Origin: a virus
Virus record (IMG/VR): IMGVR_UViG_3300039098_000035
Coordinates: 17,832 to 81,831 of that record
DNA: 64,000 nucleotides
Direction: 5' to 3' (one strand)
The translations under genes and the position numbers were made by a program. Below the pieces are notes generated by a model. It did not search any database, was not told the DNA's origin, and was given only the letters and a program-made list of their open reading frames with translations. Position 1 is the stretch's first letter. Every line of letters starts with the position of its first letter. Shown here in pieces: positions 6,022 to 31,594 of the stretch.

Positions 6022-6090
6022 TGATATGATAACACAAGATGTTATGTTAGACGCAATAGAAAAAATGAAAAAACAATTAAGGAGATAACT

Positions 6091-8675: not shown

Positions 8676-8720
8676 ATAAATAACCCCTTACTCTTATGAG
8701 TAGGGGGTTTATTTTTTTTT
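8676..8720. terminator. Intrinsic terminator between the convergent replication and virion modules
   Basis: Hairpin AACCCCTTACTC-TTAT-GAGTAGGGGGTT followed by a long T run on + and preceded by an A-rich tract. Confidence 0.85.
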
Positions 8721-11700
8721 ATCTCATTGCTTGTGACTGACGATGACGTACGTACTGTTTCCATTGTATGTCTTTAACTAATCCTATTGGATCTACCTTA
8801 GGTTGTCGCATACGTCCGTACTTATTAAACCAGTTCTTATATATATTTTCATATCGTTTGTATCTACCGTTATTGTTTCTATACTTATAAGGAGTGTATT
8901 TATTGTTTCCTTCACTGTAATTATATAAGAAGTTAAACGTATTTCCTAGTGTACGTTCTCTCTGTTGTACAGGTTTACGTACCCCAGGAGTAGGTGGTGT
9001 TACATTACGAGGCCCTAGTGTATTAGCTGACCTTGTAAGTACGCCTACTGTAGCTAAATTCTTCATAGCTTCTCCTACATCTTTAGTTGTTGCTAATGTG
9101 TGCAGAGATCTAAGTATTGGATTACGTCTTTGTTCTATAGTAGCTGCAGTGTTATTGAGAATGTTCTGTACATCGTATAGTCCAAATCCTAAACGAAGTC
9201 CTACGCCTCCTCCTACAGGTAGCCAACCATTCATAATTTGAAACTGTTCATACTGATCATATTGTCCATCTTCATCTGCATATTGTCCATATACGCCATC
9301 AACTATATCACTGATTAATCTATTGTATGATGGATCAAGCATTCTATCTAACCAGTTATCAACTGTACGTATTGGGAAAGATAGGTATGGTATATCTGCA
9401 AGTAGCTGTGTTTCTACAGGTGTACGTTGTCCATAATTAAACCAACGTTTTAAAGATCTGTTAACTGTTTCATTAAAAGAGTATCCATATAGGTATCTAT
9501 CAAATAGAAACCCACCTATACGTGCAGTATTTTCAATGGTCTCATTCATGTTCGCGTATAATTTATAAGGTTGGAATGCAAGTTCAGCTAATTTATTTTC
9601 AAAAGTACGTGAAGCATCGTTAACTTCTTTTGAAACTTCTTCATATGTTTTATCTGTTGTATTGTTGAAGTTGTCTGATACACGTTTCTCTACAATACGT
9701 CTTAAGTATGTGTAGTGTTCTTGTTTGTATGTATCTATCTGTGCATTTGTTTGCATGAATGCAGAAATTTCAAATAGAATATGTTCTACATCATTGTATA
9801 TTGGTTTATCTTTTTTACCTTTGTCTTTGTTATATTTTTCCATCCATTTTTTTATACGTTTACGGGGTTTGTTTGGTGTGCTAGGGTCGAACATTAAGGA
9901 ATCATGTAGTGTTAAGTATTCTGCAAAGTTAATGTTAAGTATAAATGCAGCACTGTCTTTAATATCTTTACGTCCATCTAATACTTGTAGTTTTTCTTTA
10001 GCTTTAAACCTAAATGTAGGGTCTTCTATTTTCTCAATTTCTTTTAAGTTTTTAAATCCAACAATATCTTTAACTACAAAATTCATAAGAGTGTCTAAAC
10101 TTTTTAATACTTTAGTAGCTCTGTCAGACCTGTGCTTAATACGCGATTTAACATTGTTGAGTTTTTTAACACCTTCAGTGTAGCTGTATATTCTATTGCG
10201 AATATCTACTAAATTTTTAACTAATGTAATAGCATCATTGTGGGTAATACTACCGTGGTTGTTTTTAATACGAGTAAATACTTGTTGCATTTCTTCAAAT
10301 TTACTTTTGATATCTATCTGTACTGTTAATCTTTCTTCATATACATCTTGGTAAAGTTTATATAGTTGTCCAGTAAGCCCTGTAATTCTAAGTATTTCTG
10401 GAGCTTTTGTTATGGTACCGTATAATCCTTCTTGGGTGTATAGTTCACTGTATATTTGTGTCCATGTATCCATGTAGTTACGGAACAGAAAGCCTAGTGA
10501 TAGTCTCATCATAAGTTTTTGAGAATACTGTAACGAAGATACTAAATCAGGTATCATACCTTTACCTTCTAATCTTGCAGGTTTGTATGCAATATCATAT
10601 GAACTCATAAAATCATCTAAGGTTACAAATCCTATACTTAATTCTTCTGTTGTATTATTATTCTTCATATGATCTTCCATCATCTTTAATACTCTAGCAA
10701 AATCTTCAGGAGTTTTAATATTAATTTCTTTTAATGTAGGTGACACATCATCTTTAAAATCTATACCGTTAAGGTCTACTGTTTTATAACGCTTACCGTT
10801 AATTTTAATACCGTCTTCTTTAGTTATACCTTTGTTTAAATCTTTCACATACTTTATAATGTCTTCAAACGAATCGAAGCGAGTAGTTTTTCTATGTTTA
10901 TATATATTCCAAGGCATCATCTTAGCCCAGTTAGATTTGTTATCATACTCTGTAATGTTTTTCCTTAGTTGATCTCCAAGATTTCTTACTAAAGTTTCAT
11001 TATCATAGGCATCCATTACCACTGTTAACCTTAAGAACTTTCGGTTTCCTCTGTAGTAATCGAATAATTTATCCCAGTCATAGGTGTCGTCATCGTTTTT
11101 AAACAATGAAGCCATTGTTAAGAATGGTGTTTGATACTTTTGCATGTTCATTAAGTTTGTATCTTTAATTTTTTGTACATCTTTACTGGTAAACTCTGGG
11201 TCATCTCCTATATATTTAGGTGCGTTTTCATAAAGATCGAATATAGTTCTACCTTTAGGGTCGTGTAGTAGGAACGTACCTTTACTGAAACTTTTACTGA
11301 ATGCTGCTTTAGCTGTAATCTCTTTCATCTTTTTAATCTTACTTCTAACTTCTTTTTCTTTAGCGTTAAGGTCAGCTATGTGTTTAGTAACGTCTTTATT
11401 TTTATCAATGTAAGCTATAGCTTTGTCTTTATGTGTAACGTCATCTTTGATGTGTATTATTTTACCACGTATGTTAAGTAATTCTGCTGATAATTCTTTT
11501 AACTCTTGCTCATTTTGTTTATACATAGTATATGCTGTCGTTATTTCTCTTATTGAATTTCCTACATTATGATAACTAAATTTATTACGGTTAGCTATTT
11601 TAATTTTGATATCGTTAGATGATAACTTTTTAATTCCGTCATCATATTGCTCTGCTTTGTCACCATGTATAGAGCGTAGTGTGCTGAACTCTGTCTTAAC

Positions 11701-14700
11701 ATTCTCAAGCAAGTCATCTAATGTCTCTTGGTTACGTATACTTTTAATACCTTTTTCTTCTAGGTATGTAGTAAATAATTTCTGTTCTAATGGTGTACTT
11801 TCGTTATACATTTTAGTATAGTTAGCTACGTTATTACGGGCATCACTACCTGTGCTTAGGTTGGATAACATTTCTTGTGAGTAATGTGCAGGTACTTTTA
11901 TACTGTTATTACTTACTGTATTAGTTTTTCTAGTTACATTACCTTCAAGATCCATAGTTAAATATTCGTAGTCTACATCTTTATTGTTTAATAGAAAATC
12001 TTTAGCTGCTTGGTGTTCATCCCCAAGTAATGCATCTAATCTAGTACGTTCATGTTTGCTTTTAAGCGTAATTAACTGTGCAAATAATCCATATCCTTTA
12101 GCTATAAATGGAATCTTATCTTTAGATAATGCAGCATGGTTTGTTAAATGGTACGTATCGTTAACACTACGGTATAGACTATATGATGTAGTAAGTACTC
12201 TAAGTACTCTATATGCAGGTATGTTATATGTTAACAACGTCTGCATGTATTCATTAACTGTCTTAACTGTACCTCTTACCTTAATTTTTTTGTCCAAGAT
12301 TTGTTTGATAGGTAGCTCAGCATTGAATGCTTTAGTAATTGCTTCAAGTACATCGGATACTTCATAATATATACTGTCAGCAAAATGGGCATCATTAAAG
12401 AACTCAGCCTTAGCGTATTCATTAATACGTTTAGTTAAGTTTATTCTTGCATCAGTTTCATTGTTGTAATAATCTTTACGTTGTGTGTTAGACATATCTT
12501 TATTCAATGCCTCACGTCTAGCTTTAACAACTTCATCTGATATACGTACACCATTTTTTTCAAATGGATTTGAATCCATAGCTATTGCTAATGACCTTGA
12601 ATGGTTTCTATCTACACCTGTTGTAACTTTACGTATACTTTCTTCAGCAGTTTTCGCCCCTACTTTTTTATTATAGTTGTTATAGAATACAGTCTTATCG
12701 ATGTCACGTCCAGCATGTTTAGCTAGACCAATGATAGTACTTGCATCCTCTGATTGTACCCCTAATTTTCTACGATCAATAATAATTTGATCGAGATAGT
12801 TGTCCCCTGCTTTTTTAATAAATTTTTTAACATTTTTATCTTTAGTAAAATTTTCAGCAACCTTAATGTTCTTACCAAAGTAAAATACATCGATGAACAT
12901 TTTATCTGATTCAGATAATGTAACGGTGCCATGGTCCTTATGGTCTTCAGTTATCTTTTCTAACATGTCCTTGTAGAATACATTTAGATCTTTAGGGTAG
13001 TACTTGTTGAAGTGTGCTACTATACCTATCTGATCTGTGCTGTCGTATACATCTTTAAGACTTGTAAGTTCTTCTGTTACTCTAACAGATTCATTGATAG
13101 TGGTGTGGATATCTCCTAATACTTTAATCATATCATCTGCCCACATATCTTTGTATGTTTCAGTGTTGCCACTGGTGTAGTAGTCTGCTATGTTTCCTAT
13201 TTCTTTCTTAGCTAATGATATAAACTTAGACTTGTTCATCTTCTTAGCTTTGGCTATATGCTTAGCACTTAATAGTTTTGTTACTAACGATCTAGTAGTT
13301 AAGTTACCATTACTACCTCTAAATGGATCCCATACATTACCCTCAGGGTCTCTATTCAAGCTGTTGTATCTACTTAATATTGATGCAGCTACACGGTTCT
13401 TTCTGTTACCACCGAACAGGTTGATACCACGTTTAGATGTTTGGATACGTTCTACTGTACCAAGCACACTATCAGTGTATACCTTACTGTTTGCTACCTT
13501 AAGGAATAATTCCTTATACTTATCAGCATTAACCATGATGTTCTCTATACCAACCTCTCTAATTGTAGCATTGTCTGCTTTAGATAGGTGTAATGTTTGA
13601 TACTTAAAGTCTTCACTACTTACGTGCTTAGATATGTCATACTTACCTGCACCTACTAACTTATCAAATATATAATACTTCGATGCTATATCTAATATCT
13701 TACTGCGTTTAAACATAGCGGCAACCTTAGCAGGGTTGTCATAGTCTTCTATTTTAAACCCATCTATAGTATTGGCACCTTTTGTTAGCTTACGTATTGC
13801 TACGTTCAAGAAGAACTTTCTATTATCGTTGTTCCATTTAATGTTAGCTTTACTTACGTCAGCATCATCGATATCTTTTTGAATACTGTCGAACGTACTA
13901 CCGTAAATTTCTCCCCAAGTATAGTGCGTTCTAATTTCTTTAAACGTGTGCTTACCTACTGATGAGTAACGTAGATCTACATTGTCAAATGTTATACGCT
14001 TGTTACTTGTTTGCATTTTTTTATTAATTTTCTCTATGTACCCGTGATCATAGTAGTTATCTTCAGTAGCATCTAAGTTCTTAAACAAAGTTTTTTGTGT
14101 AACACCTGGTTCAATTTCTTTATGGCTATCCACTGCTAACATACCGATAGTATCACCATCATTATCTCCACCTATTAATTTGTATAGGTAAGCATTAGCT
14201 TCTACTGCATGGTGTGTATGGTACCCTATAACTTTAAGCATAGGTACTGCATTATAATCCTGTACTGGTGAACGTGCAGCTACAACCCAACCATACTTCT
14301 GTCCGAAGTTTTCAAATGTAAACACTCCATCTTTCTCAGTGTACATTGTGTGGTCTACGCCATTAATCTTGTCGTTCGTTACACCTATACTGTTAAGGTA
14401 ATCAATAAATTTTTTCTTATTCTTAACTGTTGCTGTAGTACCATCATTAGACACTAAGTCCTGTGCTTTAGCAGACTTAATATCGAATCCATTGATGAGC
14501 TTTTTCCATATGGTCTTGTCTACTTTACCATACTCTAAGAATCCACCTTTTAAATCTTGGAATGCTTCCCATCCATCTTTAGATGTACGTATTTCTCCTT
14601 GACCTAACCTTAAGTTAGCAAGTAACTGTTGACGTACACCATCATGTCTTCTATATATAGACTCATACATTACACCTGTGTTACCATGTATAATTTCAAG

Positions 14701-26700: not shown

Positions 26701-29700
26701 GTATTTAGATTCCTGCTTTTTATTTACTTCTACGTATGTGCTTATTTTTCTACCGCGTTTATAGTTTTCTGCAAGTACTCTTACTTTGAACGCTTGGTCT
26801 ACTTCATTGGGGTACCTCTTAAGTCCTACACGGTTTAAGTACTTCCAATCAAATTTAATATTGTCTCCAATGTCTAGCATTTGTCCGAACATCTTTATAA
26901 CATAATCATAATGTCCTTTCGATACACGTCCTTCAACTTTCAGTACCTTGAAATAATCTGTAAGTTTACTGATGTCTTTTGTGTTGTGATCTATATACTT
27001 AGACGGGACTACACCAAACTCTATAGGTACTACTTTAGTAGTGTACTTGTTACTTAAGATACCCTTAACATACTTCACAGTTTTAGTGGTGCCTTTTCCC
27101 CCCACTACTGTACTGTGTTTAATGGATGGTATCAGGTTAAACATATTCTTTTTCTTAATTTTATTTACAATAGACGCTTTACTGTTCTCTAGTCTAGTGT
27201 CTACTCTACCTTTAATACGTTCCTTACGTGCTTGCTCAAGCTTACGTCTGGATTTTATTTCTTTAAGAGCTACTGATTTTGTAACAGCACGCTGTTCTAC
27301 TGCAGTAGCATTATCGTTATGCTTGTTTAAAATATATGCCGCTTCTTCAGTTACACTTCTTGTATTTAGTAAGTATTTAACTACTGTACCTTCTTTATAC
27401 GTGTTGATATAGTCTGTCTCCGTGTATACTGCTTTAGTTCCCCTTATTTTTTTAACTTCATTTTTAGTAGGTATTCTAGGAAGGATCTCACGATCAACAT
27501 CTGCTGACATAAATAAACTAATGTCTTCTTTAACTACTCTACCTGAATACATATATGATTTAAAGAATTCATATGTAGGGTTCTTACGCATGAGAGTATT
27601 TACAAGATTTATTTCAGCTTGTAAGACATTTTTGAATTCTTCATAAGCATCGGTTCCTTTTTTAGACTGTAGCAATGTTACAAGTTCTTTATCTGCCTCT
27701 GTGAATAATTTAATAGCAGCATTCATCTTGTCTCGGAACAGTGAGTTACCTTTACCATACATTTTACCGTACACTATTTCTTGTAGCTTAGCTTCAGTTA
27801 GGTCCTGTAATTGTACACGTTCAATATGTATTCCATCAGACATCATAATTTTATTTATGTTAGTATATATCTTATTAAGTACATCTCCAGAAAGAACTTC
27901 AGCTACATTGTCTTCAGTTACAAGGTTAGTTTTGTTTATAAGCTCACGTATAGTATCTATACGTTTCTTTGCATCCCACTTTCTCCAGTTGGGTTTAGTT
28001 ATATTTACAGGTACTTTAACAATACCTGCCATTAATAAACTTACATCAGATGTTTTTAATGTTTTGTATATTGCTTTAGTAACCGCTTGTTGTAATGTTG
28101 GCCTGTATTCTATATCTATATTTCCTTTTACTTTTAATTTTCCTAGCAAGATTGTTTTAAGTGATGCCCCTTTTTGGGTTACTCCCTGTGCATCTTCATA
28201 GTAGTATGCTGCATCAATACCAAACATAGCTGCTATTTTATCCAGCTCATCTAGTGCTTTCGTATCCTTACTGAAGTAATCTTGTAGCAGTTTAGATACA
28301 TCCATTGTGGCTTCTTTAATTTTTACGTTTGTACCAGGTACCGCTGTAGTTGTGCTTACATTAGTATATGCTTTATATACATTAACAAGTCGCAGTAAAT
28401 TAATAAGTGTTTTGTTTAAATCGGAAGCGGTATCAGACATAACACCATTTGCTGTATGTAAAAGAGATAACACTTTATTAACTGCCGTGCTATATTTAGT
28501 GTGGTACAAGTAATAAGTAACAGCACTATTTTGTGCCAAGTATTTTTTAAGGTCATCATTTTTAAACCTTCGTTTAACAACTTCTTCTATTGTTTGTCCC
28601 GTGCGTTCAATGGCATCTTTGTATAGTTTTATCTCTTTTTGTATATCTTTTAAAGTGTCCTTATTTACCCTTACTTTAATACCACTTCCGCTTAAGTATT
28701 CAATAGGGGCAAGATCTATAAGGGCTTTGTCCTTTTCATACGTACGTTTTCTTTTTTCAATTAGGCGTTTAGATTCTTCTATATCTCTGCGTATATCTGC
28801 ATACTCTTTTTTAACATCCTCACTAAGTAGCTCTGCTTTGTCTGATAGTATTTTGTCTAAGTGCTCATTCAAGTTTGCAACACGTTTAAACATATCGTCA
28901 AGTGTGTCATTACTTTTGTTAACGTCATCTTTATTATTTAATGCCTCTGATATTTGTGGGTTCTTGTATATGGTATCTATATTAGTAATTAATTTTTCTA
29001 AGTTAGTTATTGTTTCTGCTTGCATTTTTGTAGATGTGGAAGTACGTCTAGATTCTACCCATTTACCTACAGCAAAACGTAACCCTTTTATTGCGGTGGA
29101 TACAGGGTTCGTTACATGAGTGATAGCAGTAGCCACGGTATCGATAGTGTCCATATGTGCACGCATACCAGCGTACCTACTGTACATAATTGCTGCGTTT
29201 TTAGTATCAATAGTAATATCCATATCTTGTATAAATTTAGCCACTAATGTACTTTCATCAGCTCTATCTTTATAGACTTCTTTAAGGGCTCCTAATGTTC
29301 TAGTAACACCTCGTACAAATAGTCTACTCTCGTCATCAAGATCTTTACGTCCTTTGATACGCTTGTATTTATTGTATGCTTTTTGGAATGCTGTTTTTTG
29401 TGCATCAGATCCTACGTTATATTTAAAAGTACCTTTAGTAAATATTTCATTAAACATTTTTACTATTGCTTTATACTGTACATCTATATCTATAGTACGG
29501 TATTCAGCTTTACCGGTCGCATCTTTAACATTGTTCCCTGTTAAATCCATCAATAGTTTACGGACACCTTCAGGACCTTCTTTGATATAGCTGTGGACAA
29601 GACGTTGCATTTGTGAACGCCTATAATCTGCGCCATATTTATGTGCAAAAATACCGTGGTTATCTACAAGCTTACCAATATCATTTGTTTTAGCGATGCC

Positions 29701-31509
29701 GCCTTCTGTCTGTATTTTGGCGGCTTCATAATCCATAACACGATTAATTAATTGTGATGTACTCTTTACAATTTCAGTAGTACTATATTTATCGAAAGCC
29801 TCATTGAAGTTTTGAGGATCTATTATAAGTTCTCCTAATGTAGATATTAAAGAGTTTCCTAAATTTCCGATGTCTACTCCAGCAGCTTCACGGATGTCAT
29901 CAAACATAACTGATTTATATATCTCGTCACTGTATCCCCATGAACGTGCCATAGCATCTATCATATCAGCAGAATTTCCAGATACAAGTCCTAATAATAT
30001 TGCTTTGTTTCTAGTGGCTCCATAAAGGTTGTCATTGATATCTCCATATAAAGATATGGCTGAAACAAAACTTACATCTTCAGGATTGTCAGGGGCCCAA
30101 GGTAACGCATCATCTATAATTCCTGTAAATGCAGACACACCTTGTAAAGCCATCATAGATAGACCTGCTCTGGCTTGGTTACCTAGTGCACTAGTTGTTA
30201 GCCATTGAGACGCACCATGAATACCAGGTATGTTTCCGATAGCTCCGCGTCCTGATGCCATTGAGTTCAGCATTACAGGAACTCCTAGCATAGTTACAGC
30301 TGCTGCCAGTGTAGATATAGGTCTATTAATAATACCTGCATTTAAATTTTTAATAAACATTTCCTGTGCTTTAGCACCTTCAGGTGAAAGGGATTTACCT
30401 AGGGTTTGTCCGACCAACCAACCTTGGATGGCGCTGACACCTAGAGAAACCACACCACCTATAGTAGATATAGTTGTACCTAATACTCCTACACCTGCTC
30501 CTACACCAGTAAACCAAGAAGAGTACCCCGCTATTTCCATAGCACTCCCAGCTACAGCTACAGAATCACCTAGCAGCGCTAGACTATTAAGTCCTATATT
30601 TAACAAGTCTTTCTGTTCTATACTTTGGGATAGTCCTGCTATTGATAGCCCTAGCGATGCTAGATCTGCAGTAGCTCCGATATAAGGTACAAGCCCTGTA
30701 CCCTTAGTGGCAGCTTTACTTCCAGTTTTTATTATATCTGTTGTAATTCCTGCACTACGTAATGTATCGCCTGTTATATTAGCAGCACGTGCTGCGTCAT
30801 CAGCTGTGTAATATGCCTTGCGTGCTTTTTGCAATGCTTTTTTACCTGCATTGGAATTATTTCTATACTTGTATTTAGTCCATAAATTTTCTACTATGTC
30901 TTGTGTAAGGTTAGCATCTTTGTCCATCATTTCTGCGGCTACAAGAGCGTCTTTTGTACCTAAAAATGCTTCATTTACTTTATTATAATTAGTGATTAAC
31001 GCATCATATTTATCATATACTTTTTTATTATCAGATATTAAACGCATTCGTGAGAATGAACTGTTATGGAACGCAGTACGTTTTGGGTTTAGTTCCCCAG
31101 TCCACCCTGACTTAGGGTTAATAGTATTACTGCTCCAAAATCTTTTTGATATAGGGTTCTTATATTTAAGCCCTAATGCAGGTAGCGTTGCAACGCCACT
31201 GCTTAATAGCGAGCTTACTCCAGCACCTACAACTCCACCTATAATTCCAAATGTATCATATATCCCTGCATCTTTATACGCATACTCTTTACGAATACGT
31301 TCCATATAAGCTTCATTATTTACAGCAAATGGAGATGCTGCCATTTGTTCCAATGTATATTGGAATTGTGAAGCATTGTATGCACCTGCTTGACCGTAAC
31401 CAAGTACCCCGGTATACAGAGGATTCATAGCAGGTCTACTGTATAAGTTAGCAACCTCTAAATGGTTACGGTTATACACATAAGGTTTTCTAGGTTTCAT
31501 TACAGCCAT
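8719..31509 (-). CDS. Giant (7596 aa) virion/ejection polyprotein containing a fused beta-beta' two-barrel RNA polymerase core and DEDD exonuclease motifs
   Basis: Uninterrupted 22.8-kb ORF with AAGGAG RBS. Beta-like GLNLQVGFI..AFEDTLLI, EGNK..GFKGG, IQERGAYG, GLYVIMDADH. Beta'-like IIHGNTG..RRHD..LRLGQ, RSP, GGDNDGD (14152-14172). Exonuclease VLDMET and IIAHNGESFDF. Confidence 0.85.
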   Translation of the reverse strand: MAVMKPRKPYVYNRNHLEVANLYSRPAMNPLYTGVLGYGQAGAYNASQFQYTLEQMAASPFAVNNEAYMERIRKEYAYKDAGIYDTFGIIGGVVGAGVSSLLSSGVATLPALGLKYKNPISKRFWSSNTINPKSGWTGELNPKRTAFHNSSFSRMRLISDNKKVYDKYDALITNYNKVNEAFLGTKDALVAAEMMDKDANLTQDIVENLWTKYKYRNNSNAGKKALQKARKAYYTADDAARAANITGDTLRSAGITTDIIKTGSKAATKGTGLVPYIGATADLASLGLSIAGLSQSIEQKDLLNIGLNSLALLGDSVAVAGSAMEIAGYSSWFTGVGAGVGVLGTTISTIGGVVSLGVSAIQGWLVGQTLGKSLSPEGAKAQEMFIKNLNAGIINRPISTLAAAVTMLGVPVMLNSMASGRGAIGNIPGIHGASQWLTTSALGNQARAGLSMMALQGVSAFTGIIDDALPWAPDNPEDVSFVSAISLYGDINDNLYGATRNKAILLGLVSGNSADMIDAMARSWGYSDEIYKSVMFDDIREAAGVDIGNLGNSLISTLGELIIDPQNFNEAFDKYSTTEIVKSTSQLINRVMDYEAAKIQTEGGIAKTNDIGKLVDNHGIFAHKYGADYRRSQMQRLVHSYIKEGPEGVRKLLMDLTGNNVKDATGKAEYRTIDIDVQYKAIVKMFNEIFTKGTFKYNVGSDAQKTAFQKAYNKYKRIKGRKDLDDESRLFVRGVTRTLGALKEVYKDRADESTLVAKFIQDMDITIDTKNAAIMYSRYAGMRAHMDTIDTVATAITHVTNPVSTAIKGLRFAVGKWVESRRTSTSTKMQAETITNLEKLITNIDTIYKNPQISEALNNKDDVNKSNDTLDDMFKRVANLNEHLDKILSDKAELLSEDVKKEYADIRRDIEESKRLIEKRKRTYEKDKALIDLAPIEYLSGSGIKVRVNKDTLKDIQKEIKLYKDAIERTGQTIEEVVKRRFKNDDLKKYLAQNSAVTYYLYHTKYSTAVNKVLSLLHTANGVMSDTASDLNKTLINLLRLVNVYKAYTNVSTTTAVPGTNVKIKEATMDVSKLLQDYFSKDTKALDELDKIAAMFGIDAAYYYEDAQGVTQKGASLKTILLGKLKVKGNIDIEYRPTLQQAVTKAIYKTLKTSDVSLLMAGIVKVPVNITKPNWRKWDAKKRIDTIRELINKTNLVTEDNVAEVLSGDVLNKIYTNINKIMMSDGIHIERVQLQDLTEAKLQEIVYGKMYGKGNSLFRDKMNAAIKLFTEADKELVTLLQSKKGTDAYEEFKNVLQAEINLVNTLMRKNPTYEFFKSYMYSGRVVKEDISLFMSADVDREILPRIPTKNEVKKIRGTKAVYTETDYINTYKEGTVVKYLLNTRSVTEEAAYILNKHNDNATAVEQRAVTKSVALKEIKSRRKLEQARKERIKGRVDTRLENSKASIVNKIKKKNMFNLIPSIKHSTVVGGKGTTKTVKYVKGILSNKYTTKVVPIEFGVVPSKYIDHNTKDISKLTDYFKVLKVEGRVSKGHYDYVIKMFGQMLDIGDNIKFDWKYLNRVGLKRYPNEVDQAFKVRVLAENYKRGRKISTYVEVNKKQESKYKEMLYKSMYTSVEEYMSTHTNSPYLDIFQLNKDLGFEEEDIDVFIENLINDPDGHFKAGVYEGIFKDAIAKTNEALLTNSFNRTHKKISSIMASIRAYEQKDIVGLSDRYYTLARDVVKAMIIGDAKYDTLIKDIMNYGKLDFNNDTDINKLEVPLFQVMFLLNKYIETDRASKLKLDPGKVTDYGLKNDEVIFTIKTDTGVRTINMFTMLLEYHVNIKDIYGLRIRVGKNKDIKVVQDINNRIEIEYNGLINKYGNLLIEDIVDIPKEAYLRDSTEEDYNLLVDPQYNYLQRSLSLDTFLNTRKRSKAQKDFKANIAEYLKENVTGLYTKATKDILNKKIQTIDVNGKQVAKPKDPDALFALYIMGSKMPEETKQGLFREIFFYKHQVSKGFALDRNITKLQKRLKHSKKILDGFKKNPDKYKVRIKRVGTEVKDLTERISAYTRIQKIAKDAKLKDPVPFFKFLKANPSSISSIIHSTYSTDFEDYAMAFDVKSKKYVVVKRKDINGKLNVNDKNVKGLPNYNTEIGENIIDENDIVYANRLTTHLKATMKGSFEGASFEVRSASDYGITIVTDNKDVFPERVINKIKATIRETQGVANIGKVFILTDEEHGDITKMHKIGKYVNVYKYTTKVVNGKILGEVNPNIINVKGSKVRIEKYLNDINKLISVAKKKKMSIDETVDEFLKYSELKEKHTAINKGTLTNVAFNSSSVYKQLEKDAELEAAFMEFLKYVGADTEFDKYSIDVIANLFFKDEYIRRNSNGDLFDLSKLEDKIDTVKLAELKGITVGSKTLLENIRTALEKMQTKYNASEMSFDFSNVLNQDFLRNLNNVRDTVYDFMHKLKRGHKLHTDMMHILKRKHKEGLEWYITPDEMRERQQALLEVAPPHAKAYIKPYGPNKINQAVKTIIKMQDEFDKKKDGVTLQHRLVSTYKTIRAGHKKKNAHKNARKLGKIRGINYYSLKKLKDLHSTKNTESLLKELDVNVKISDSLKKDIVTALKSTVGDPRRLFMKGMDTSDTSKVEEYIDMFKREVIDTYVDYSLRNIQKVPFMELVMRANFAYSELPESNKLTFNEYYQKLLTEQKDKTKTARSEGPEYFRNIGSVTMDSWITKQVFPAGILDFLSPESYGDLQIVIKELLDAVEYTTFKDKQNYTVDPKTLKEIVPSRFKSIQEYLDSIKDIDVRNATAFFVDIEILKKTTKGYDIAELLTKHNLKDKDFDGAWVRVQGDVFQQAYDILRAGKKHTNRKFENNYEVYHLMGISLLDDNIIFKEAVHDYLFAIKSMDGKSIKLKADAKRIQVKKFLSAFGLEYEEVESLFRNYKTMDSIVSVIQAKFTTTSKMYAFTRVLNELKIQFLFKELGSKWNFKDARYTYRDIVVQGNMRAINDVEITNALGRDYKKDKFDNSVINSIDDSLNFINDARSYADSMNDKLKMVRIPKTDTVNEVIGIDPKYILTAETKMNQVTRNIQRRIYSNVMSKQNSVSPMSKIQHDLNNALADVSFDIIDEDYADDVTQVQSKNKVYNELRELFTDFTRHMRKDFKEKDFIRMQDIGIAFQVLKADNNLIGAYKEELGRYISLIPKHETARIKGLDASLKGILNKFESEGFLANNVKEGFIRGVLGYIIVNKYNVGKAEFADRQERMFTYIKKHLRRKSRLAKQDINNITTMLSGVQDVQKLVNKMYPKESLAAMTPTERKEAEKIIEATKDLKMILLNDLSITNAQTEDTMLIAQSFDDSIRIEETPLAIDYTNTERKMAELETIKKRIVSSQGGLKSSFKFALSDTTVAEEKLKEVEDNVAATTKAVEDLEESYIKLLEDRRNKKQEYLQKIFMNNPTLIKEFIEDTETFVRNKTLAAQKEVDGVRAKKDIGILKEYDRRKALELKRDTLIQSDEGILFRRVRSSKFVTAKDTFNTFKNELAILQITSVAKYKKWYEFIENSIDIIDRDLEATPKIISAKGNTLKWIHHYKGLKKSEDITNKRIDGLDAYLAGFQGIADLKGATLDKNQFAIINRFIYSIDKKYKDNITTAKKNVFETETVGKLTKRDITEILETTTKFKDRVEAQLDSQYASLKLLAGITMDGAAYENIIDAKVLALQASTRTLIRTPKPDMEKHEDEYKTKLIKVHANIAVDTFASKMKIERSKLSDMKANSLRENAIKKSKHLKTSTLLAKTVKDLNNMIKYKPGYTYTKSEELPTDVDTYIDGRLDFSIDKVHNAKVRKDVVSLEKLKANISKTRAALENNNKIVEALDKAKPTSVKKLLMEASNEIKIDNPTINTMDVVTYLSDSDIETMNETLVASRTKIKEAKVLKDKARLRQASYYTYTKGNIAKTEKIQGEIDELSVEAQGYKDSYDKLVEARLLEKPHSNSNLGTYMNLYGFKKGETPEEVALIKEQVLQDVINRTSGLFKGGKETLEELIKDASVSNKVELHNPIMDAIITRLNYVAQMKKLGRKIPEAFIVLDMETIKNNYGVPTPYQMTLVKQVMHKGSPVIKIVNQYISNQMFVAGTEELMQPDGAILITKSKQIEDFYEQQWKIAIKENPTAVRADVDAITAMTIEKVKGQGNDLLFVKTFVDEMNAASKNTPIIAHNGESFDFVYYDKFIQRIANTLLNNMYHKAINSMDADTIEAKLRATGLDWTSKDNLVNMGKERKLIEQYHKAIQEVRKKYNRGMEVTANELDMIDKFYSEILKIMSLKVIKDTQESLSIIQNVEVKEALFTGVNSQIDYINELFFNYVDADTLVSKESIKHELVQYFTKGFSIHSKLEQYKEIEKWVTEELLEKSEKEYLHILSVETILDYNTQTAYESYHNTVVGTVNDALGISKENNSTLAPAKMITNFEVKLKQILQHIEYLKSPASSAPGERSTQLRAEQKDLLDTAVVLEDRISEITTKIVDIENLKEEYIRDIQRATRVIQNFTDTMTYDVNIAVNRELALEISKRDLARTHTTNLGLIQMQMDEQVRGMNIAIKDLTEIANILKTTDIDNEADVKKVLESPKVKAMLEKTLEPEVIKAKSEAAINKLIKGYTDKITNMSKLVTKINKGSDITVSKELTTLLETKLTDVIKDIKTIKDIRVKDLQKSWNKYIHRFLPKANNKIDLTDKDITVELKGMYDSLLTAVPKWQGNTVFNTLLTNTSTTGGIHKVLEVLNTKDTTVGKLETRNISSMVAIAIQKDIAHYEHSIDILKNKTPGDDKSYNASLKSITNKFNEILSKVEVISNVKKEIEYEDIFNILQGRANDITIEDYEGLKAAATKRKDKQFIKDMNVKRVERAYNDYNEGINKSGIGLNPDVVFNTVHETDNGNIITVSVPTPPDKFGNTYVQQYTYNTKYPTKGTVKLAYYYTETDTDLIYKKPLVIERKIKPSELKKLLKTLYIHKDKDGKTVRGLTGLRKENIFTENGIDDAYESINKLVETLKSMQKKGAFKYYKEEADQAKAMKAALEGTVNDKDMKDTSLVKYDLSKLLRHRFYSYLDVIQYAKRKENAGDIHKVYRGIVDTVMSKFSSNDPGKHLNLIPADYSTNYIAKWTAKRAYELGMNLELSAEGSAGSATNIRTQANADKLHTFNTNAIRSILSLSKMHLNYTPIGAINETYVLEDADPSKTFEEHITDYVNKQKGTKKKKLTELLLETYKDDKVVKQVNTYTPNILTQKQFDMYEDDVLHKIGLNLQVGFIDHPDAFEDTLLIDSADARALGWDEGNKTWLGLYGFKGGVKYVEGLRAKFGVSIIGSKSSIQERGAYGAMLDQALDTIRMHMTGAKKVPALKQYNAKLKKMFNVTKGKLILDPGTDYDVVLSELFKGVKGKWRSLIDITFKEDLKVEFVDISKPNSVGEYNFKGMNMYKGGLYVIMDADHTADHMSTKTELTEAGEIKLSVKDIKGSVRGGVSMSPSVTDVMETKDVDWQKALLGGDYKGLSTYSNIYHYGFKKVLAVHGVKDTKGEYNVAETIGNIKDLFNNILVDDIETYLLYKNKLETLKDPREIEQIEVMLEEMENRARNKALEIIHGNTGVMYESIYRRHDGVRQQLLANLRLGQGEIRTSKDGWEAFQDLKGGFLEYGKVDKTIWKKLINGFDIKSAKAQDLVSNDGTTATVKNKKKFIDYLNSIGVTNDKINGVDHTMYTEKDGVFTFENFGQKYGWVVAARSPVQDYNAVPMLKVIGYHTHHAVEANAYLYKLIGGDNDGDTIGMLAVDSHKEIEPGVTQKTLFKNLDATEDNYYDHGYIEKINKKMQTSNKRITFDNVDLRYSSVGKHTFKEIRTHYTWGEIYGSTFDSIQKDIDDADVSKANIKWNNDNRKFFLNVAIRKLTKGANTIDGFKIEDYDNPAKVAAMFKRSKILDIASKYYIFDKLVGAGKYDISKHVSSEDFKYQTLHLSKADNATIREVGIENIMVNADKYKELFLKVANSKVYTDSVLGTVERIQTSKRGINLFGGNRKNRVAASILSRYNSLNRDPEGNVWDPFRGSNGNLTTRSLVTKLLSAKHIAKAKKMNKSKFISLAKKEIGNIADYYTSGNTETYKDMWADDMIKVLGDIHTTINESVRVTEELTSLKDVYDSTDQIGIVAHFNKYYPKDLNVFYKDMLEKITEDHKDHGTVTLSESDKMFIDVFYFGKNIKVAENFTKDKNVKKFIKKAGDNYLDQIIIDRRKLGVQSEDASTIIGLAKHAGRDIDKTVFYNNYNKKVGAKTAEESIRKVTTGVDRNHSRSLAIAMDSNPFEKNGVRISDEVVKARREALNKDMSNTQRKDYYNNETDARINLTKRINEYAKAEFFNDAHFADSIYYEVSDVLEAITKAFNAELPIKQILDKKIKVRGTVKTVNEYMQTLLTYNIPAYRVLRVLTTSYSLYRSVNDTYHLTNHAALSKDKIPFIAKGYGLFAQLITLKSKHERTRLDALLGDEHQAAKDFLLNNKDVDYEYLTMDLEGNVTRKTNTVSNNSIKVPAHYSQEMLSNLSTGSDARNNVANYTKMYNESTPLEQKLFTTYLEEKGIKSIRNQETLDDLLENVKTEFSTLRSIHGDKAEQYDDGIKKLSSNDIKIKIANRNKFSYHNVGNSIREITTAYTMYKQNEQELKELSAELLNIRGKIIHIKDDVTHKDKAIAYIDKNKDVTKHIADLNAKEKEVRSKIKKMKEITAKAAFSKSFSKGTFLLHDPKGRTIFDLYENAPKYIGDDPEFTSKDVQKIKDTNLMNMQKYQTPFLTMASLFKNDDDTYDWDKLFDYYRGNRKFLRLTVVMDAYDNETLVRNLGDQLRKNITEYDNKSNWAKMMPWNIYKHRKTTRFDSFEDIIKYVKDLNKGITKEDGIKINGKRYKTVDLNGIDFKDDVSPTLKEINIKTPEDFARVLKMMEDHMKNNNTTEELSIGFVTLDDFMSSYDIAYKPARLEGKGMIPDLVSSLQYSQKLMMRLSLGFLFRNYMDTWTQIYSELYTQEGLYGTITKAPEILRITGLTGQLYKLYQDVYEERLTVQIDIKSKFEEMQQVFTRIKNNHGSITHNDAITLVKNLVDIRNRIYSYTEGVKKLNNVKSRIKHRSDRATKVLKSLDTLMNFVVKDIVGFKNLKEIEKIEDPTFRFKAKEKLQVLDGRKDIKDSAAFILNINFAEYLTLHDSLMFDPSTPNKPRKRIKKWMEKYNKDKGKKDKPIYNDVEHILFEISAFMQTNAQIDTYKQEHYTYLRRIVEKRVSDNFNNTTDKTYEEVSKEVNDASRTFENKLAELAFQPYKLYANMNETIENTARIGGFLFDRYLYGYSFNETVNRSLKRWFNYGQRTPVETQLLADIPYLSFPIRTVDNWLDRMLDPSYNRLISDIVDGVYGQYADEDGQYDQYEQFQIMNGWLPVGGGVGLRLGFGLYDVQNILNNTAATIEQRRNPILRSLHTLATTKDVGEAMKNLATVGVLTRSANTLGPRNVTPPTPGVRKPVQQRERTLGNTFNFLYNYSEGNNKYTPYKYRNNNGRYKRYENIYKNWFNKYGRMRQPKVDPIGLVKDIQWKQYVRHRQSQAMR

Positions 31510-31548
31510 GGTATCAAGCTCCTTTGTATAGGGTTTATCTCACTACAT

Positions 31549-31590
31549 AGTATACCATAAAAAAACCACCCTTTCAAAGAGTGGTTTTAA
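31549..31590 (-). promoter_or_regulatory. Overlapping intrinsic terminator and sigmaA-type promoter for the giant gene
   Basis: On -: hairpin AAAACCACTC...GGGTGGTTTTTTT. TTGAAA (31577-31572), 17 nt, TATACT (31554-31549) with TG extension. Confidence 0.75.
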
Positions 31591-31594
31591 TTTA

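What the first reader, a model, noticed from the sequence alone, without database searches (positions are those of the whole stretch)
8719..31509. Overall architecture of the 22.8-kb gene: membrane-type N-terminus, long helical rods, exonuclease, RNAP, polyvalent-type C-terminus
Seen: one ORF occupies over a third of the window, sits just downstream of the capsid genes and has its own sigmaA-type promoter. Roughly 3400 aa between the N-terminal hydrophobic region and the exonuclease have no motif I can recognise. Inference: an all-in-one ejection machine that forms a channel and then pulls in or transcribes the genome, possibly processed as a polyprotein. The unassigned region may hide further effector or anti-defence domains.
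Basis: partly seen in the sequence, partly recalled or inferred. Interest (0 to 1): 0.75.

Follow-up and report, generated by a model that had tools for sequence, protein, structure and literature searches.

The report
Giant phage protein carrying RNA polymerase
One real 7,596-residue gene, over a quarter of an uncultured marine-sediment phage genome, encodes a conserved giant protein whose core is a single-chain copy of the cellular-type RNA polymerase, probably carried in the virus particle and injected to start phage transcription.

Summary
The ORF is real: 8719-31509 (-), 7,596 aa, 27.9% of an 81.8-kb phage contig. It is not an artefact. 26 further full-length relatives (7,377-8,057 aa, about 21-50% identical) are colinear from end to end with conserved landmark spacing.

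The RNA polymerase claim is strongly supported. AlphaFold of aa 5100-6299 (pLDDT 83.5) matches beta-type subunits (Z 13.4-15.0) and then beta'-type subunits (Z 9.7-11.8). Both score better than crAss gp66 (Z 6.6). DNDGD is invariant.

- **Exonuclease:** two DEDD motifs are invariant, but only weak profile hits were found and no Exo III motif.
- **N-terminus:** Gly/Ala-rich hydrophobic segments are present; membrane insertion is untested.
- **'Polyvalent-type' C-terminus:** weak leads only.
- **aa 620-3990:** no recognisable domain; the 'helical rods' were not folded.
- **Own promoter:** a consensus-like site exists, but such sites are no more frequent than chance.

Best reading: a virion-delivered transcription machine, functionally like N4 gp50, crAss gp66 or P23-45 gp96. 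Packaging is inferred, not shown.

The scan had already reported the 8,057-aa relative on other DNA (e1-5869563). I class this as a new variant of a known kind.

The parts
8719..31509 (-). Whole gene: 7,596 codons plus the stop codon (8719-8721)
   Evidence: Colinear with 15 relatives over its full length.
29650..31509 (-). N-terminal conserved region, aa 1-620. Invariant blocks lie at aa 23-105, 355-397, 489-502 and 524-570.
   Evidence: No family or PDB hit. Atlas best score 0.87 to unnamed viral clusters.
30262..31245 (-). Span holding the three Gly/Ala-rich hydrophobic segments (aa 89-107, 336-354, 398-416). These are the only such segments in the protein.
   Evidence: Kyte-Doolittle 19-aa window means of 1.54-1.67. 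Similar segments occur at similar places in the 5 relatives examined.
19540..29649 (-). Poorly conserved, length-conserved spacer, aa 621-3990, with no recognisable domain
   Evidence: 13-30% identity per 100-aa bin. The DxET landmark lies at 4172 +/- 123 in 27 of 27 members. No hits. No internal repeats. Not folded.
18715..19422 (-). DnaQ/TREX-like exonuclease-like region, aa 4030-4265. Exo I-like D4068-x-E4070; Exo II-like H4195-N-G-x-x-F-D4201.
   Evidence: Invariant residues. TREX1/2 profile hits at the Exo II motif, E 0.9-2.3. PF13482 RNase_H_2 in 1 of 6 members, E 1.5e-5. Exo III not found; fold not predicted.
16213..18714 (-). Linker between the exonuclease-like region and the polymerase, aa 4266-5099; unassigned
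   Evidence: 15-28% identity. No hits.
14965..16212 (-). Beta (Rpb2)-type polymerase module with a double-psi beta-barrel, aa 5100-5515. Invariant E5285-D5286, K5305-T-W and G5312-F-K-G.
   Evidence: AF2 model. VIA-align Z 15.7, rmsd 4.6, 259 aligned to Rpb2 488-1078. Z 13.4-15.0 to nine beta-type chains on model 10-414.
12613..14919 (-). Beta' (Rpb1)-type polymerase module, aa 5531-6299. It includes the catalytic double-psi beta-barrel and long helices after it.
   Evidence: Foldseek: all 50 listed rows are chain A-type chains of multisubunit RNAP entries, E from 5e-5. VIA-align Z 9.7-11.8 on model 432-1200.
14152..14166 (-). Metal-binding loop D-N-D-G-D, aa 5782-5786. It is preceded by invariant R5746-x-P-V-Q-D-Y-N.
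   Evidence: Invariant in A1. Present in 27 of 27 full-length members and in 5 distinct loci.
8722..11412 (-). C-terminal region, aa 6700-7596: the best-conserved part (34-56% identity, 20 invariant residues per 100 aa near the end). Mostly helical, fold unassigned.
   Evidence: AF2 pLDDT 63.3. No PDB match at E<=0.001. Best Z 8.4, generic helical bundle. Weak LPD38 leads.
31549..31588 (-). Terminator-like hairpin (31588-31562) overlapping a promoter-like TTGAAA-17-TG-TATACT (31577-31549). An AAGGAG ribosome-binding site follows, 8 nt before the ATG.
   Evidence: The count of promoter-like sites is not above shuffles.
31595..31933 (-). Conserved 112-aa ORF between the capsid gene and the giant gene
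   Evidence: 63% identical in G001, same position.
32006..33838 (-). Major-capsid-like gene immediately upstream in the same operon
8682..8709 (.). 12-bp-stem hairpin with a T run, between the convergent ends of the giant gene and the replication module
   Evidence: 1 found; 0.1 +/- 0.3 in shuffles.

Best explanation
The gene encodes an approximately 860-kDa (my estimate from its length) multidomain protein. It is made late with the structural proteins, packed into the capsid, and ejected into the host with or ahead of the DNA.

Its catalytic core (aa ~5100-6300) is a single-chain DNA-dependent RNA polymerase. In it, a beta-type module and a beta'-type module of the cellular two-barrel enzyme are fused in that order. 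Once inside the cell it would transcribe the phage's early genes independently of the host polymerase.

The other parts, as I read them:
- A DnaQ/TREX-like exonuclease-like domain lies about 1,700 aa upstream of the active site.
- A conserved N-terminal region with three Gly/Ala-rich hydrophobic helices is the candidate for envelope contact.
- About 3,400 aa of fast-evolving but length-conserved sequence acts as a spacer.
- The strongly conserved C-terminal ~900 aa is the candidate packaging or docking part.

Shown here: the ORF, its conservation, the polymerase fold and its catalytic loop, and the gene's position. Inferred: packaging, ejection, early-gene transcription, and the roles of every non-polymerase part.
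For: - **ORF intact**. Logan contigs of run X1 tile 11600-31599 with 0 differences at even depth of about 9.5-10; this run is probably the same sample.
- **Family size.** 15 of 15 'near-length' hits are 7,377-7,964 aa. 18 of the 35 hits among 1.84 billion representatives are 6,661-7,998 aa; the other 17 are short pieces. G001 has an 8,058-aa open frame without stops.
- **Landmark spacing** is conserved in 27 of 27 full-length members.
- **Polymerase model.** AF2 pLDDT 83.5, pTM 0.81.
- **Foldseek.** 97 PDB matches at E<=0.001; all 50 listed are chain A-type chains of multisubunit RNAP entries.
- **VIA-align.** Z 15.7 to Rpb2. In the Foldseek-independent search of 48,161 chains, ranks 1-20 are all two-barrel polymerases: beta-type Z 13.4-15.0, beta'-type Z 9.7-11.8, QDE-1 9.3, P23-45 gp96 8.5, with crAss gp66 at 6.6, rank 29.
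- **DNDGD** is invariant.
- **Gene order.** Terminase, portal-like..., capsid, 112-aa ORF, then the giant gene as the last gene of the structural strand, convergent with the replication genes. The order is the same in G001.
- **No other polymerase gene** was recognised in the 81.8-kb contig.
- **Cysteine.** 0 Cys in 7,596 aa; 13 of 27 giants have none. Replication proteins of the same genome have 0.4-1.1%. The tail fibre (0.13%) and the 1,100-aa protein (0.09%) share the depletion.
- **Precedent for virion two-barrel polymerases inside huge proteins.** crAss-like fused polyproteins (passage seen in bioRxiv 10.1101/2020.03.07.982082). P23-45 gp96 (abstract, passages and section 9 of 10.1101/2022.12.01.518664).
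Against: - No proteomic, expression or activity data exist, and no RNA run was listed.
- The contig is only about 81% complete by CheckV. A second polymerase or other relevant genes could lie in the missing part.
- Pfam polymerase models PF00562 and PF00623 do not detect the region. Neither does a family profile searched against PDB sequences. The assignment therefore rests on a predicted structure plus motifs.
- Bridge helix and trigger loop were not mapped residue by residue.
- The exonuclease lacks an identifiable Exo III motif, and the window's own copy gets no Pfam hit.
- Cysteine depletion is shared with other structural proteins. It argues only for an extracellular or virion life, not for ejection.
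- The hydrophobic segments are weakly hydrophobic (1.5-1.7) and glycine-rich. They may not be transmembrane.
Confidence: 0.7

Rival explanations
1. Tape-measure-type protein fused to a polymerase, as in Thermus phage P23-45. In this reading the length-conserved ~3,400-aa stretch sets the length of a very long tail, and the polymerase travels down the tail with it.
For: - Landmark spacing and total length are tightly conserved (7718 +/- 153 aa) despite 13-30% identity, which is ruler-like behaviour.
- Gly-rich hydrophobic segments are present.
- 6 of the 50 listed BFVD rows for the C-terminal model are tape measure proteins, at E 0.019-0.14.
- P23-45 gp96 is a real precedent and matches the polymerase model at Z 8.5.
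Against: - The gene is not in a tail block. It follows the capsid gene as the last gene of the operon.
- No tail-tube, sheath or tape-measure family was hit in the scans.
- Terminase and capsid proteins are nearest to podophages of Paenibacillus and Bacillus.
- The BFVD rows are not significant and are typical of long helices.
- In P23-45 the polymerase is N-terminal; here it lies at aa 5100-6300.
Confidence: 0.1
2. A non-virion polymerase or replication-transcription scaffold. It would be made late and used inside the cell, for example for late transcription, and would not be packaged.
For: - Packaging is not shown.
- A terminator-like hairpin followed by a promoter-like site separates the gene from the capsid genes, so it might be regulated on its own.
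- The structurally nearest phage chains include the non-virion polymerases of AR9 (Z 15.0) and PhiKZ (Z 13.9).
Against: - The position and strand among structural genes are conserved in G001.
- Near-total cysteine loss matches the other structural proteins, not the replication proteins.
- An 860-kDa enzyme with 5,000 aa of non-catalytic sequence is hard to explain for a purely intracellular polymerase.
- Every giant polymerase-carrying phage protein whose location was reported in the papers read here is in the virion: N4 and DEV (abstracts only), crAss, P23-45.
Confidence: 0.12
3. A polyprotein: the ORF is translated once and cut into several virion proteins (N-terminal envelope part, spacer, exonuclease, polymerase, C-terminal part). 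This is compatible with the best explanation rather than exclusive of it.
For: - For crAss-like phages, a paper states that three virion proteins are fused in some phages into one huge polyprotein that is 'likely cleaved' (passage seen).
- The conserved islands here are separated by poorly conserved stretches.
Against: - No protease domain was found in P0001 or in tiles of three relatives.
- No genuinely split homologue was seen. All shorter hits look like pieces of family members, mostly on short contigs.
- In 27 of 27 full-length members the gene is kept as one frame.
Confidence: 0.3
4. Assembly or gene-calling artefact: a chimeric contig or read-through of several genes.
For: Only one sequencing run holds the stretch, and it is probably the source sample.
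Against: - 26 further full-length colinear relatives come from several sources (ena, jgi, lgn).
- An 8,058-aa open frame without stops lies in a fully syntenic genome.
- 22.8 kb without a stop codon in 33% G+C DNA.
- Contig re-assembly is consistent, with no differences.
Confidence: 0.01

Closest known systems
Catalytic subunits of multisubunit RNA polymerases (beta/Rpb2 and beta'/Rpb1), including the split enzymes of jumbo phages AR9 and PhiKZ (PDB 7s00, 7ogp)
   Same: Best structural matches. The beta-type module scores Z 13.4-15.7 and the beta'-type module Z 9.7-11.8. The order is beta then beta'. There is a DxDGD-type loop in the second barrel.
   Different: - Here both modules are in one chain, embedded in a 7,596-aa protein.
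- No Pfam polymerase model detects it.
- Only part of each subunit is matched: about 250-316 of ~1,100 residues for beta and 171-283 for beta'. It is therefore a reduced core.
- No alpha- or omega-like partners were seen.
Virion RNA polymerase gp66 of crAss-like Cellulophaga phage phi14:2 (PDB 6VR4), and the fused 'huge polyprotein' forms in other crAss-like phages
   Same: Single-chain two-barrel polymerase. It is encoded with giant neighbouring or fused proteins at the edge of the structural genes, is virion-packaged and transcribes early genes (passage; Yutin 2021 passages). It matches the model over 409 residues.
   Different: - It is a weaker structural match (Z 6.6, rank 29) than cellular-type subunits.
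- There is no sequence relation.
- The motif here is DNDGD, against DFDxD as stated in that abstract.
- Capsid and terminase of this phage are nearest to Firmicutes podophages, not crAss-like phages.
- No zincin protease domain was found.
Thermus phage P23-45 gp96, a virion two-barrel RNA polymerase fused to the 5,002-aa tape measure protein (PDB 8H2M/8H2N)
   Same: A polymerase hidden inside a giant virion protein and delivered with the DNA. Structural match Z 8.5, 322 aligned.
   Different: - In P23-45 the polymerase is N-terminal and the rest is a tape measure in a tail module.
- It belongs to the second clade of two-barrel enzymes according to that paper (section 9). This one resembles the cellular-type clade more closely.
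- This gene follows the capsid gene.
Coliphage N4 gp50 and other Schitoviridae virion RNA polymerases (~3,400-3,500 aa)
   Same: A giant polymerase packed in the capsid and expelled into the cell with other ejection proteins (abstracts of PMC13434306 and PMC11445570, seen in the listing). From my own recall, not from a call: the central polymerase is flanked by N- and C-terminal domains needed for injection and packaging, and the gene lies at the end of the late gene block.
   Different: - The N4 enzyme is a T7-like single-subunit polymerase (recalled), a different fold from the two-barrel core predicted here.
- It is half the size.
- No sequence relation was found in any scan.
TREX1/TREX2 and DnaQ-like DEDD 3'-5' exonucleases
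   Same: The Exo II-like 'vAHNGxrFDfp' segment aligns with the TREX1 'VAHNGDRYDFP' segment (alignment printed). An Exo I-like D-x-E lies 123 +/- 9 aa upstream in 27 of 27 members.
   Different: - E-values of 0.9-2.3 are not significant.
- No Exo III (H/Y ... D) motif was identified.
- The window's own copy has no Pfam hit.
- The fold was not predicted.

Membership tests
Two-barrel (double-psi beta-barrel) RNA polymerase superfamily, cellular-type clade | Two DPBB-containing modules homologous to beta and beta' | tested here: met
   AF2 model pLDDT 83.5. Beta-type Z 13.4-15.7 on model 1-415; beta'-type Z 9.7-11.8 on model 432-1200. Isolated DPBB domains (Cdc48-N, VAT-N and a designed DPBB) match model ~522-729 at Z 6.3-7.7.
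Two-barrel (double-psi beta-barrel) RNA polymerase superfamily, cellular-type clade | DxDxD metal-binding loop in the beta'-type barrel | tested here: met
   DNDGD at aa 5782-5786 (model 683-687), inside the DPBB match. It is invariant in 16 of 16 sequences and present in 27 of 27 full-length members.
Two-barrel (double-psi beta-barrel) RNA polymerase superfamily, cellular-type clade | Conserved basic/glycine motif of the beta-type barrel (E. coli 'GDK..GRHGNKG', recalled) | tested here: inconclusive
   Invariant K5305-T-W....G-F-K-G5315 and E5285-D5286 lie within the beta-type match. The residue-by-residue equivalence to E. coli is from recall, not from a printed alignment.
Two-barrel (double-psi beta-barrel) RNA polymerase superfamily, cellular-type clade | Bridge helix and trigger loop after the catalytic barrel | tested here: inconclusive
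   Long helices at model 900-942 and 1018-1057, with invariant T6018..R..SK..G..RK6037, lie within the beta' match range. They were not mapped to the named elements.
Two-barrel (double-psi beta-barrel) RNA polymerase superfamily, cellular-type clade | Detection by curated sequence models (Pfam RNA_pol_Rpb2_6, RNA_pol_Rpb1_2) | tested here: not met
   PF00562 and PF00623 give no match in the whole contig at E<=10, while both ring in 14 of 14 control genomes. Tile scans found nothing. Sequence membership of these Pfam families therefore fails; the fold-level relation stands.
Two-barrel (double-psi beta-barrel) RNA polymerase superfamily, cellular-type clade | Template-dependent RNA synthesis | not testable with these tools
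   Needs biochemistry.
crAss-like virion RNAP (phi14:2 gp66 family) | Sequence or profile relation to gp66 orthologues | tested here: not met
   No PHROG hit on any tile. No match in 50,697 phage records. None of the 35 hits in the exhaustive search lies outside this family.
crAss-like virion RNAP (phi14:2 gp66 family) | Closest structural neighbour is gp66/QDE-1-type | tested here: not met
   6vr4_B scores Z 6.6 (rank 29) and QDE-1 Z 9.3, against Z 13.4-15.0 for beta-type and 9.7-11.8 for beta'-type cellular or jumbo-phage subunits.
crAss-like virion RNAP (phi14:2 gp66 family) | Presence in virions and early-gene transcription | not testable with these tools
   No cultured member and no proteome.
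DEDD (DnaQ-like) 3'-5' exonuclease | Exo I (DxE) and Exo II (NxxxFD-type) acidic motifs | tested here: met
   D4068, E4070, H4195, N4196 (in 6 of 6 sequences of A8), F4200 and D4201 are conserved. The spacing is 123 +/- 9 aa in 27 of 27 members.
DEDD (DnaQ-like) 3'-5' exonuclease | Exo III motif (H or Y, plus the fourth acidic residue) | tested here: inconclusive
   No invariant H/Y...D was found downstream. The only conserved residues there are F4208, N4219, Y4221 and Y4263.
DEDD (DnaQ-like) 3'-5' exonuclease | Significant match to a curated model or solved exonuclease | tested here: inconclusive
   19 of 20 PDB profile hits are TREX1/TREX2 or a related exonuclease, but at E 0.86-2.3. PF13482 is hit in 1 of 6 members at E 1.5e-5 and not in the window's copy.
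DEDD (DnaQ-like) 3'-5' exonuclease | RNase H-like fold | not tested
Phage 'polyvalent protein' C-terminal module (Pfam LPD38, PF18857) | Match to the Pfam model | tested here: inconclusive
   hmmscan found it in 0 of 7 family members even at E<=10. The six-frame search of the contig found nothing, but the control rang in 0 of 14 genomes.
Phage 'polyvalent protein' C-terminal module (Pfam LPD38, PF18857) | Fold or feature similarity to LPD38 proteins | tested here: inconclusive
   - Atlas: 6 of 30 nearest clusters carry LPD38; best score 0.93, 149 of 256 features shared, recognition 1802, which the tool calls weak.
- BFVD: 7 of the 50 listed rows are named LPD or PolyVal, at E 0.008-0.13. There are 0 rows at E<=0.001, and 6 tape-measure rows appear in the same list.
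- The model's pLDDT is only 63.3.
Tail tape measure protein | Gene placed in the tail block, and a match to a tape-measure family | tested here: not met
   The gene follows the capsid gene as the last gene of the operon, in G000 and in G001. No tape-measure family was hit in Pfam or PHROGs.

The most novel reading that the evidence does not exclude
The protein is a complete, self-contained genome-delivery and start-up machine made from one chain.
- It leaves the capsid largely unfolded; the cysteine-free composition prevents trapping by disulfides.
- The N-terminal Gly/Ala-rich helices enter the envelope.
- The length-conserved ~3,700-aa stretch refolds into a conduit or strut of fixed length across the cell envelope.
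- The fused beta-beta' polymerase, a reduced descendant of a cellular-type or jumbo-phage-type multisubunit enzyme rather than of the crAss/QDE-1 type, pulls the genome in by transcribing it.
- The attached exonuclease-like domain trims the DNA end or the transcript.

This would be an independent, third or fourth invention of the virion polymerase. It would also be the largest single phage gene product that I found mentioned: a 2016 paper called a 14,256-bp gene the second largest phage gene (passage), and the P23-45 tape measure has 5,002 aa.
Probability: 0.15. Interest if true: 0.9.

Novelty: new variant of a known kind. Interest (0 to 1): 0.7.

Why it matters
Virion-carried RNA polymerases let a phage start its programme without the host enzyme. 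Three solutions are documented in the papers I saw (N4, crAss-like, P23-45).

This family would add a fourth. It has a polymerase core that looks like a fused, stripped-down cellular or jumbo-phage beta-beta' pair. That bears on how single-chain two-barrel polymerases arose.

It also shows three further things:
- A podophage-related lineage with an 80-kb genome spends 28-30% of its DNA on one protein.
- The protein's length is conserved to about 2% while most of its sequence drifts.
- Curated models (Pfam, PHROGs, NCBIfam) miss all of its domains.

A cultured member would give a tractable system for asking how an 860-kDa chain is packed and passed through a tail.

Tried and rejected
SCANS THAT FOUND NOTHING USABLE
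- Pfam, PHROGs and NCBIfam on three overlapping tiles of P0001 gave no family at the thresholds used. The only rows were DUF6673 at E 0.076 and DUF5743 at E 0.0014, both below their cut-offs.
- Pfam on 3,000-aa tiles of L003, L001 and G001: nothing.
- phmmer of both halves against PDB sequences: nothing usable.
- Family profiles against PDB: the polymerase region (A5) returned only a chance release-factor row at E 0.28. The C-terminus (A7) returned one row at E 1.8.
- tblastn of aa 5001-6500 and aa 6900-7596 against 50,697 phage records: no match.
- A single-protein scan of viral contigs found no relative. With an alignment it found one locus. Metagenome contigs gave five loci, one of them the same contig as the viral one.

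SEARCH FOR SPLIT OR STAND-ALONE FORMS
- 'Shorter' searches with the C-terminus gave 20 hits and with the N-terminus 6 hits. All look like pieces of family members and none has a Pfam domain.
- Whether pieces on long contigs are cut at contig ends could not be checked. An example is P0039: 1,500 aa, longest contig 77,687 bp.

C-TERMINAL MODEL
- Foldseek against PDB gave 0 matches at E<=0.001.
- VIA-wide gave a best Z of 8.4, generic helical bundles only.
- BFVD gave 0 matches at E<=0.001.

OTHER NEGATIVES
- Atlas on the N-terminus: best score 0.87. An RTX pore-forming-domain cluster at 0.80 is at chance level.
- The giant-family HMM against seven structural proteins of Paenibacillus phage API480: nothing.
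- Self-BLAST of P0001: no internal repeats.
- My crude hydrophobic-periodicity measure for helix against strand was uninformative. I make no claim from it.
- No RNA holder was listed. The only holder is one DNA run, probably the source.

LITERATURE
- The searches found no paper describing this family.
- 16 papers contain the string DNDGD. None of the 10 listed looked related to polymerases by title or abstract start.
The 23 polymerase family alignments of Chaban et al. and the gene tables of Yutin et al. were not seen and might include relatives.
Full report
**1. The observation**

The window holds one ATG-started open frame at 8719..31509 on the minus strand. It is 7,596 codons long with no internal stop. 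The window is bases 17832-81831 of a single 81,831-bp virus contig. That contig is linear and about 81% complete by CheckV. The gene is therefore 27.9% of the known genome. G+C is 31-34% across most of the gene (39% in its last 2-kb window), so a 22.8-kb frame free of stops cannot be chance.

Logan contigs of the only run that holds the stretch tile 11600-31599 with no differences, at even depth of about 9.5-10. That run is a marine sediment metagenome and is probably the source. It is therefore not independent support.

**2. It is a conserved gene family, not an artefact**

- A word-indexed search restricted to proteins of similar length gave 15 hits. All 15 are 7,377-7,964 aa and 27-50% identical over the polymerase region.
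- An exhaustive HMMER search of 1.84 billion representatives with aa 5100-6299 gave only 35 hits at E<=0.001. Of these, 18 are 6,661-7,998 aa. The other 17 are short pieces that map to various parts of the reference.
- No known polymerase was among the hits.
- A MAFFT alignment of 16 full-length proteins is colinear from the first to the last residue.
- A more distant relative sits in an 80,585-bp viral contig (G001). It has an 8,058-aa open frame without stops.

In 27 of 27 full-length members the landmarks are present with conserved spacing:

| Landmark or distance | Value (aa) |
|---|---|
| Position of DxET | 4172 +/- 123 |
| DxET to HxGxxFD | 123 +/- 9 |
| DxET to DNDGD | 1729 +/- 59 |
| DNDGD to the end | 1818 +/- 51 |
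| Total length | 7718 +/- 153 |

**3. Genome context**

The plus strand of the contig up to window position 8317 encodes replication functions:
- primase/helicase, a clamp-loader-like protein and an SSB-like protein;
- an SNF2-type helicase and a family A DNA polymerase;
- an exonuclease, a phrog_6247 'topoisomerase' and an AAA_24 ATPase.

The minus strand from about 62150 down to 8719 encodes the large terminase, a 587-aa portal-position protein, a 1,100-aa protein with a weak internal-virion-protein hit, a 3,889-aa tail fibre, a major-capsid-like protein (32006-33838), a 112-aa ORF and then the giant gene as the last gene. The two strands converge at a strong hairpin at 8682-8709.

G001 has the same order throughout:

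| Protein | Identity between G000 and G001 |
|---|---|
| Capsid-like | 60% |
| Portal-position | 64% |
| Terminase | 57% |
| DNA polymerase | 51% |
| 112-aa ORF | 63% |
| Giant protein | about 21-32% |

The giant protein therefore evolves faster than the core.

Terminase and capsid are nearest, at 25-30% identity, to podophages of Paenibacillus (API480, SV21), and for the capsid also to Bacillus Page-like phages. They are not nearest to crAss-like or N4-like phages. No other RNA polymerase gene was recognised on the contig.

**4. The polymerase**

I built an alignment of the window's aa 5100-6299 with pieces from five loci, ten fragments and seven full-length relatives (23 rows). AlphaFold2 gave mean pLDDT 83.5 and pTM 0.81.

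- **Foldseek against the PDB** gave 97 matches at E<=0.001. All 50 listed are chain A-type chains of multisubunit RNA polymerase entries, with E from 5e-5 and probability up to 0.99.
- **VIA-align on Foldseek's list** put model residues 1-415 on Rpb2 residues about 490-1110. The scores were Z 15.0-15.7, rmsd 3.8-5.4, with 242-316 residues aligned.
- **The Foldseek-independent VIA search** covered 48,161 representative chains, and ranks 1-20 were all two-barrel polymerases:
  - Nine beta-type chains matched model 10-414 at Z 13.4-15.0. These were AR9 non-virion RNAP, Pol I, Pol IV, plastid PEP, PhiKZ non-virion RNAP, bacterial beta, vaccinia, ASFV and Pol III.
  - Seven beta'-type chains matched model 432-1200 at Z 9.7-11.8.
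  - The single-chain enzymes followed: QDE-1 (Z 9.3), P23-45 gp96 (8.5), P74 gp62 (8.4) and RDR2 (8.2).
  - Phi14:2 gp66 came at rank 29 (Z 6.6, 409 aligned).
  - Isolated double-psi beta-barrels (Cdc48-N, VAT-N, a designed DPBB) matched model ~522-729. That stretch contains DNDGD at model 683-687.

The region is thus a beta-type module followed by a beta'-type module in one chain. It is closer in predicted structure to cellular and jumbo-phage subunits than to the crAss/QDE-1 group.

Chaban et al. divide two-barrel polymerases into two clades. [quoted passage not shown] On structure this protein looks like the first kind.

Sequence models do not see it. Pfam PF00562 and PF00623 find nothing in the contig while ringing in 14 of 14 controls. 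A family profile finds no polymerase in PDB sequences.

**5. The exonuclease-like region**

D4068-x-E4070 and H4195-N-G-x-x-F-D4201 are conserved. A six-row family profile searched against PDB sequences returned 20 rows. Of these, 19 are TREX1, TREX2 or a related exonuclease aligned at the second motif, but at E 0.86-2.3. Scanning the six members singly, one hits Pfam RNase_H_2 at E 1.5e-5; the window's own copy does not.

I found no third (H/Y...D) motif. I read it as a probable DnaQ-like fold whose catalytic completeness is open.

**6. The N-terminus**

Residues 1-100 and 300-600 are among the best conserved, at 45-51% identity per bin. The only hydrophobic 19-residue windows above 1.5 in the whole protein are at aa 89-107, 336-354 and 398-416. 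They are Gly/Ala-rich. Comparable segments sit at comparable places in the five relatives examined.

Nothing was found in Pfam, PHROGs or PDB. The 'shorter' search gave only family pieces. The Atlas gave 0.87 at best. 'Membrane-type' is a reasonable reading of composition, not a result.

**7. The middle**

Residues 620-3990 are 13-30% identical per 100-aa bin, with 16 invariant columns. This stretch has no family hit in P0001 or in tiles of three relatives. It has no internal repeats and 4-7% Pro+Gly. Its length is conserved. I could not fold it, so 'helical rods' is untested. I saw no sign of hidden effector or defence domains.

**8. The C-terminus**

Residues 6900-7596 are the most conserved, at 34-56% identity with up to 20 invariant residues per 100 aa.

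- AlphaFold2 of aa 6401-7596 was only moderate: pLDDT 63.3 and pTM 0.44. The model is mostly helical, with better-defined parts at model 380-560 and 600-830.
- The PDB searches gave nothing specific.
- BFVD gave no row at E<=0.001. Among the 50 listed rows, 7 are named large-polyvalent-protein-associated or PolyVal, 6 are tape measure proteins and 1 is an internal virion protein.
- The Atlas put 6 of 30 nearest clusters in Pfam LPD38, with a best score of 0.93 and a low shared-feature count.
- The LPD38 model itself hits 0 of 7 members.
- The contig search for LPD38 had a silent control.

**9. Other points of the finding**

The 86-nt gap before the ATG holds, in order, a terminator-like hairpin, an overlapping TTGAAA-17-TG-TATACT site and an AAGGAG ribosome-binding site. 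Promoter-like sites are not enriched over shuffles there, so 'own promoter' is possible but unproven.

The protein has no cysteine at all. Of the 27 giants, 13 have none, 10 have 1-6 and 4 have 18-28. Replication proteins of the same genome have 0.4-1.1% cysteine, and the tail fibre has 0.13%. This fits a protein that lives outside the cytoplasm or passes through the envelope, but it does not prove ejection.

**10. Mechanism and comparison**

The best-supported reading is a virion-delivered polymerase-carrying giant protein (confidence 0.7). Three points support it: its place as the last late gene, the absence of another polymerase on the contig, and the precedents.

- In P23-45 the polymerase is the N-terminus of the 5,002-aa tape measure.
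- In N4-like phages a ~3,500-aa polymerase is expelled with ejection proteins (abstracts).

This family differs in five ways:
- its size, 7.4-8.1 thousand residues;
- the cellular-type beta-beta' character of its core;
- the attached exonuclease-like domain;
- its podophage-related head genes;
- the lack of any recognisable protease.

The rivals are a tape-measure fusion, a non-virion enzyme, a polyprotein and an artefact. They are weighed in their own sections.

**11. Earlier notes of this scan**

Notes on this window had already listed the polymerase motifs, the exonuclease motifs and the N-terminal helices. I tested these independently. A follow-up on other DNA had already reported the 8,057-aa gene of G001 as a polymerase-carrying giant protein (e1-5869563). 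I confirmed that frame and its synteny myself. Notes on unrelated giant polymerase-carrying phage proteins also call them cysteine-free. I did not check those.

**12. Verdict**

The thing is a new variant of a known kind, virion-type giant proteins carrying a two-barrel polymerase. Its unusual features make it well worth experimental follow-up.

Noticed in passing
window 8719-31509 (P0001) and relatives: The protein has 0 cysteines in 7,596 residues. Of 27 giants, 13 have none, 10 have 1-6 and 4 have 18-28. Replication proteins of the same genome have 0.4-1.1% cysteine. Other notes of this scan call unrelated giant polymerase-carrying phage proteins cysteine-free too.
   Followed up: partly
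window 31595-31933 (-): A 112-aa ORF with a strong AAGGAGG ribosome-binding site lies between the capsid gene and the giant gene. It is 63% identical and in the same place in G001, which makes it more conserved than most neighbours. Its function is unknown.
   Followed up: partly
window 35514-47183 (-): The 3,889-aa tail fibre (phrog_18345, with a Peptidase_S74 chaperone end) has no counterpart of 600 aa or more in the otherwise syntenic G001. The receptor-binding module appears to have been swapped between relatives.
   Followed up: no
alignment A8 (exonuclease-like region of six family members): One of six members has a CBM_5_12 carbohydrate-binding hit (E 7e-6) inside this region. This is a lineage-specific insertion into the giant protein. 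The capsid-like protein of the window also has a weak CBM_5_12 hit at its C-terminus (E 0.0047).
   Followed up: no
window 8682-8709: A 12-bp-stem hairpin with a T run sits between the convergent ends of the replication module and the giant gene. It is likely a terminator (1 found against 0.1 +/- 0.3 in shuffles).
   Followed up: no
G000 versus G001, whole genomes: Core genes are 50-65% identical, but the giant protein is only about 21-32% identical while keeping its length. This points to fast sequence drift under a length constraint.
   Followed up: partly
window 6384-7250 (+): A 288-aa protein matches phrog_6247 ('DNA topoisomerase') at E 7e-106 but has no Pfam hit.
   Followed up: no
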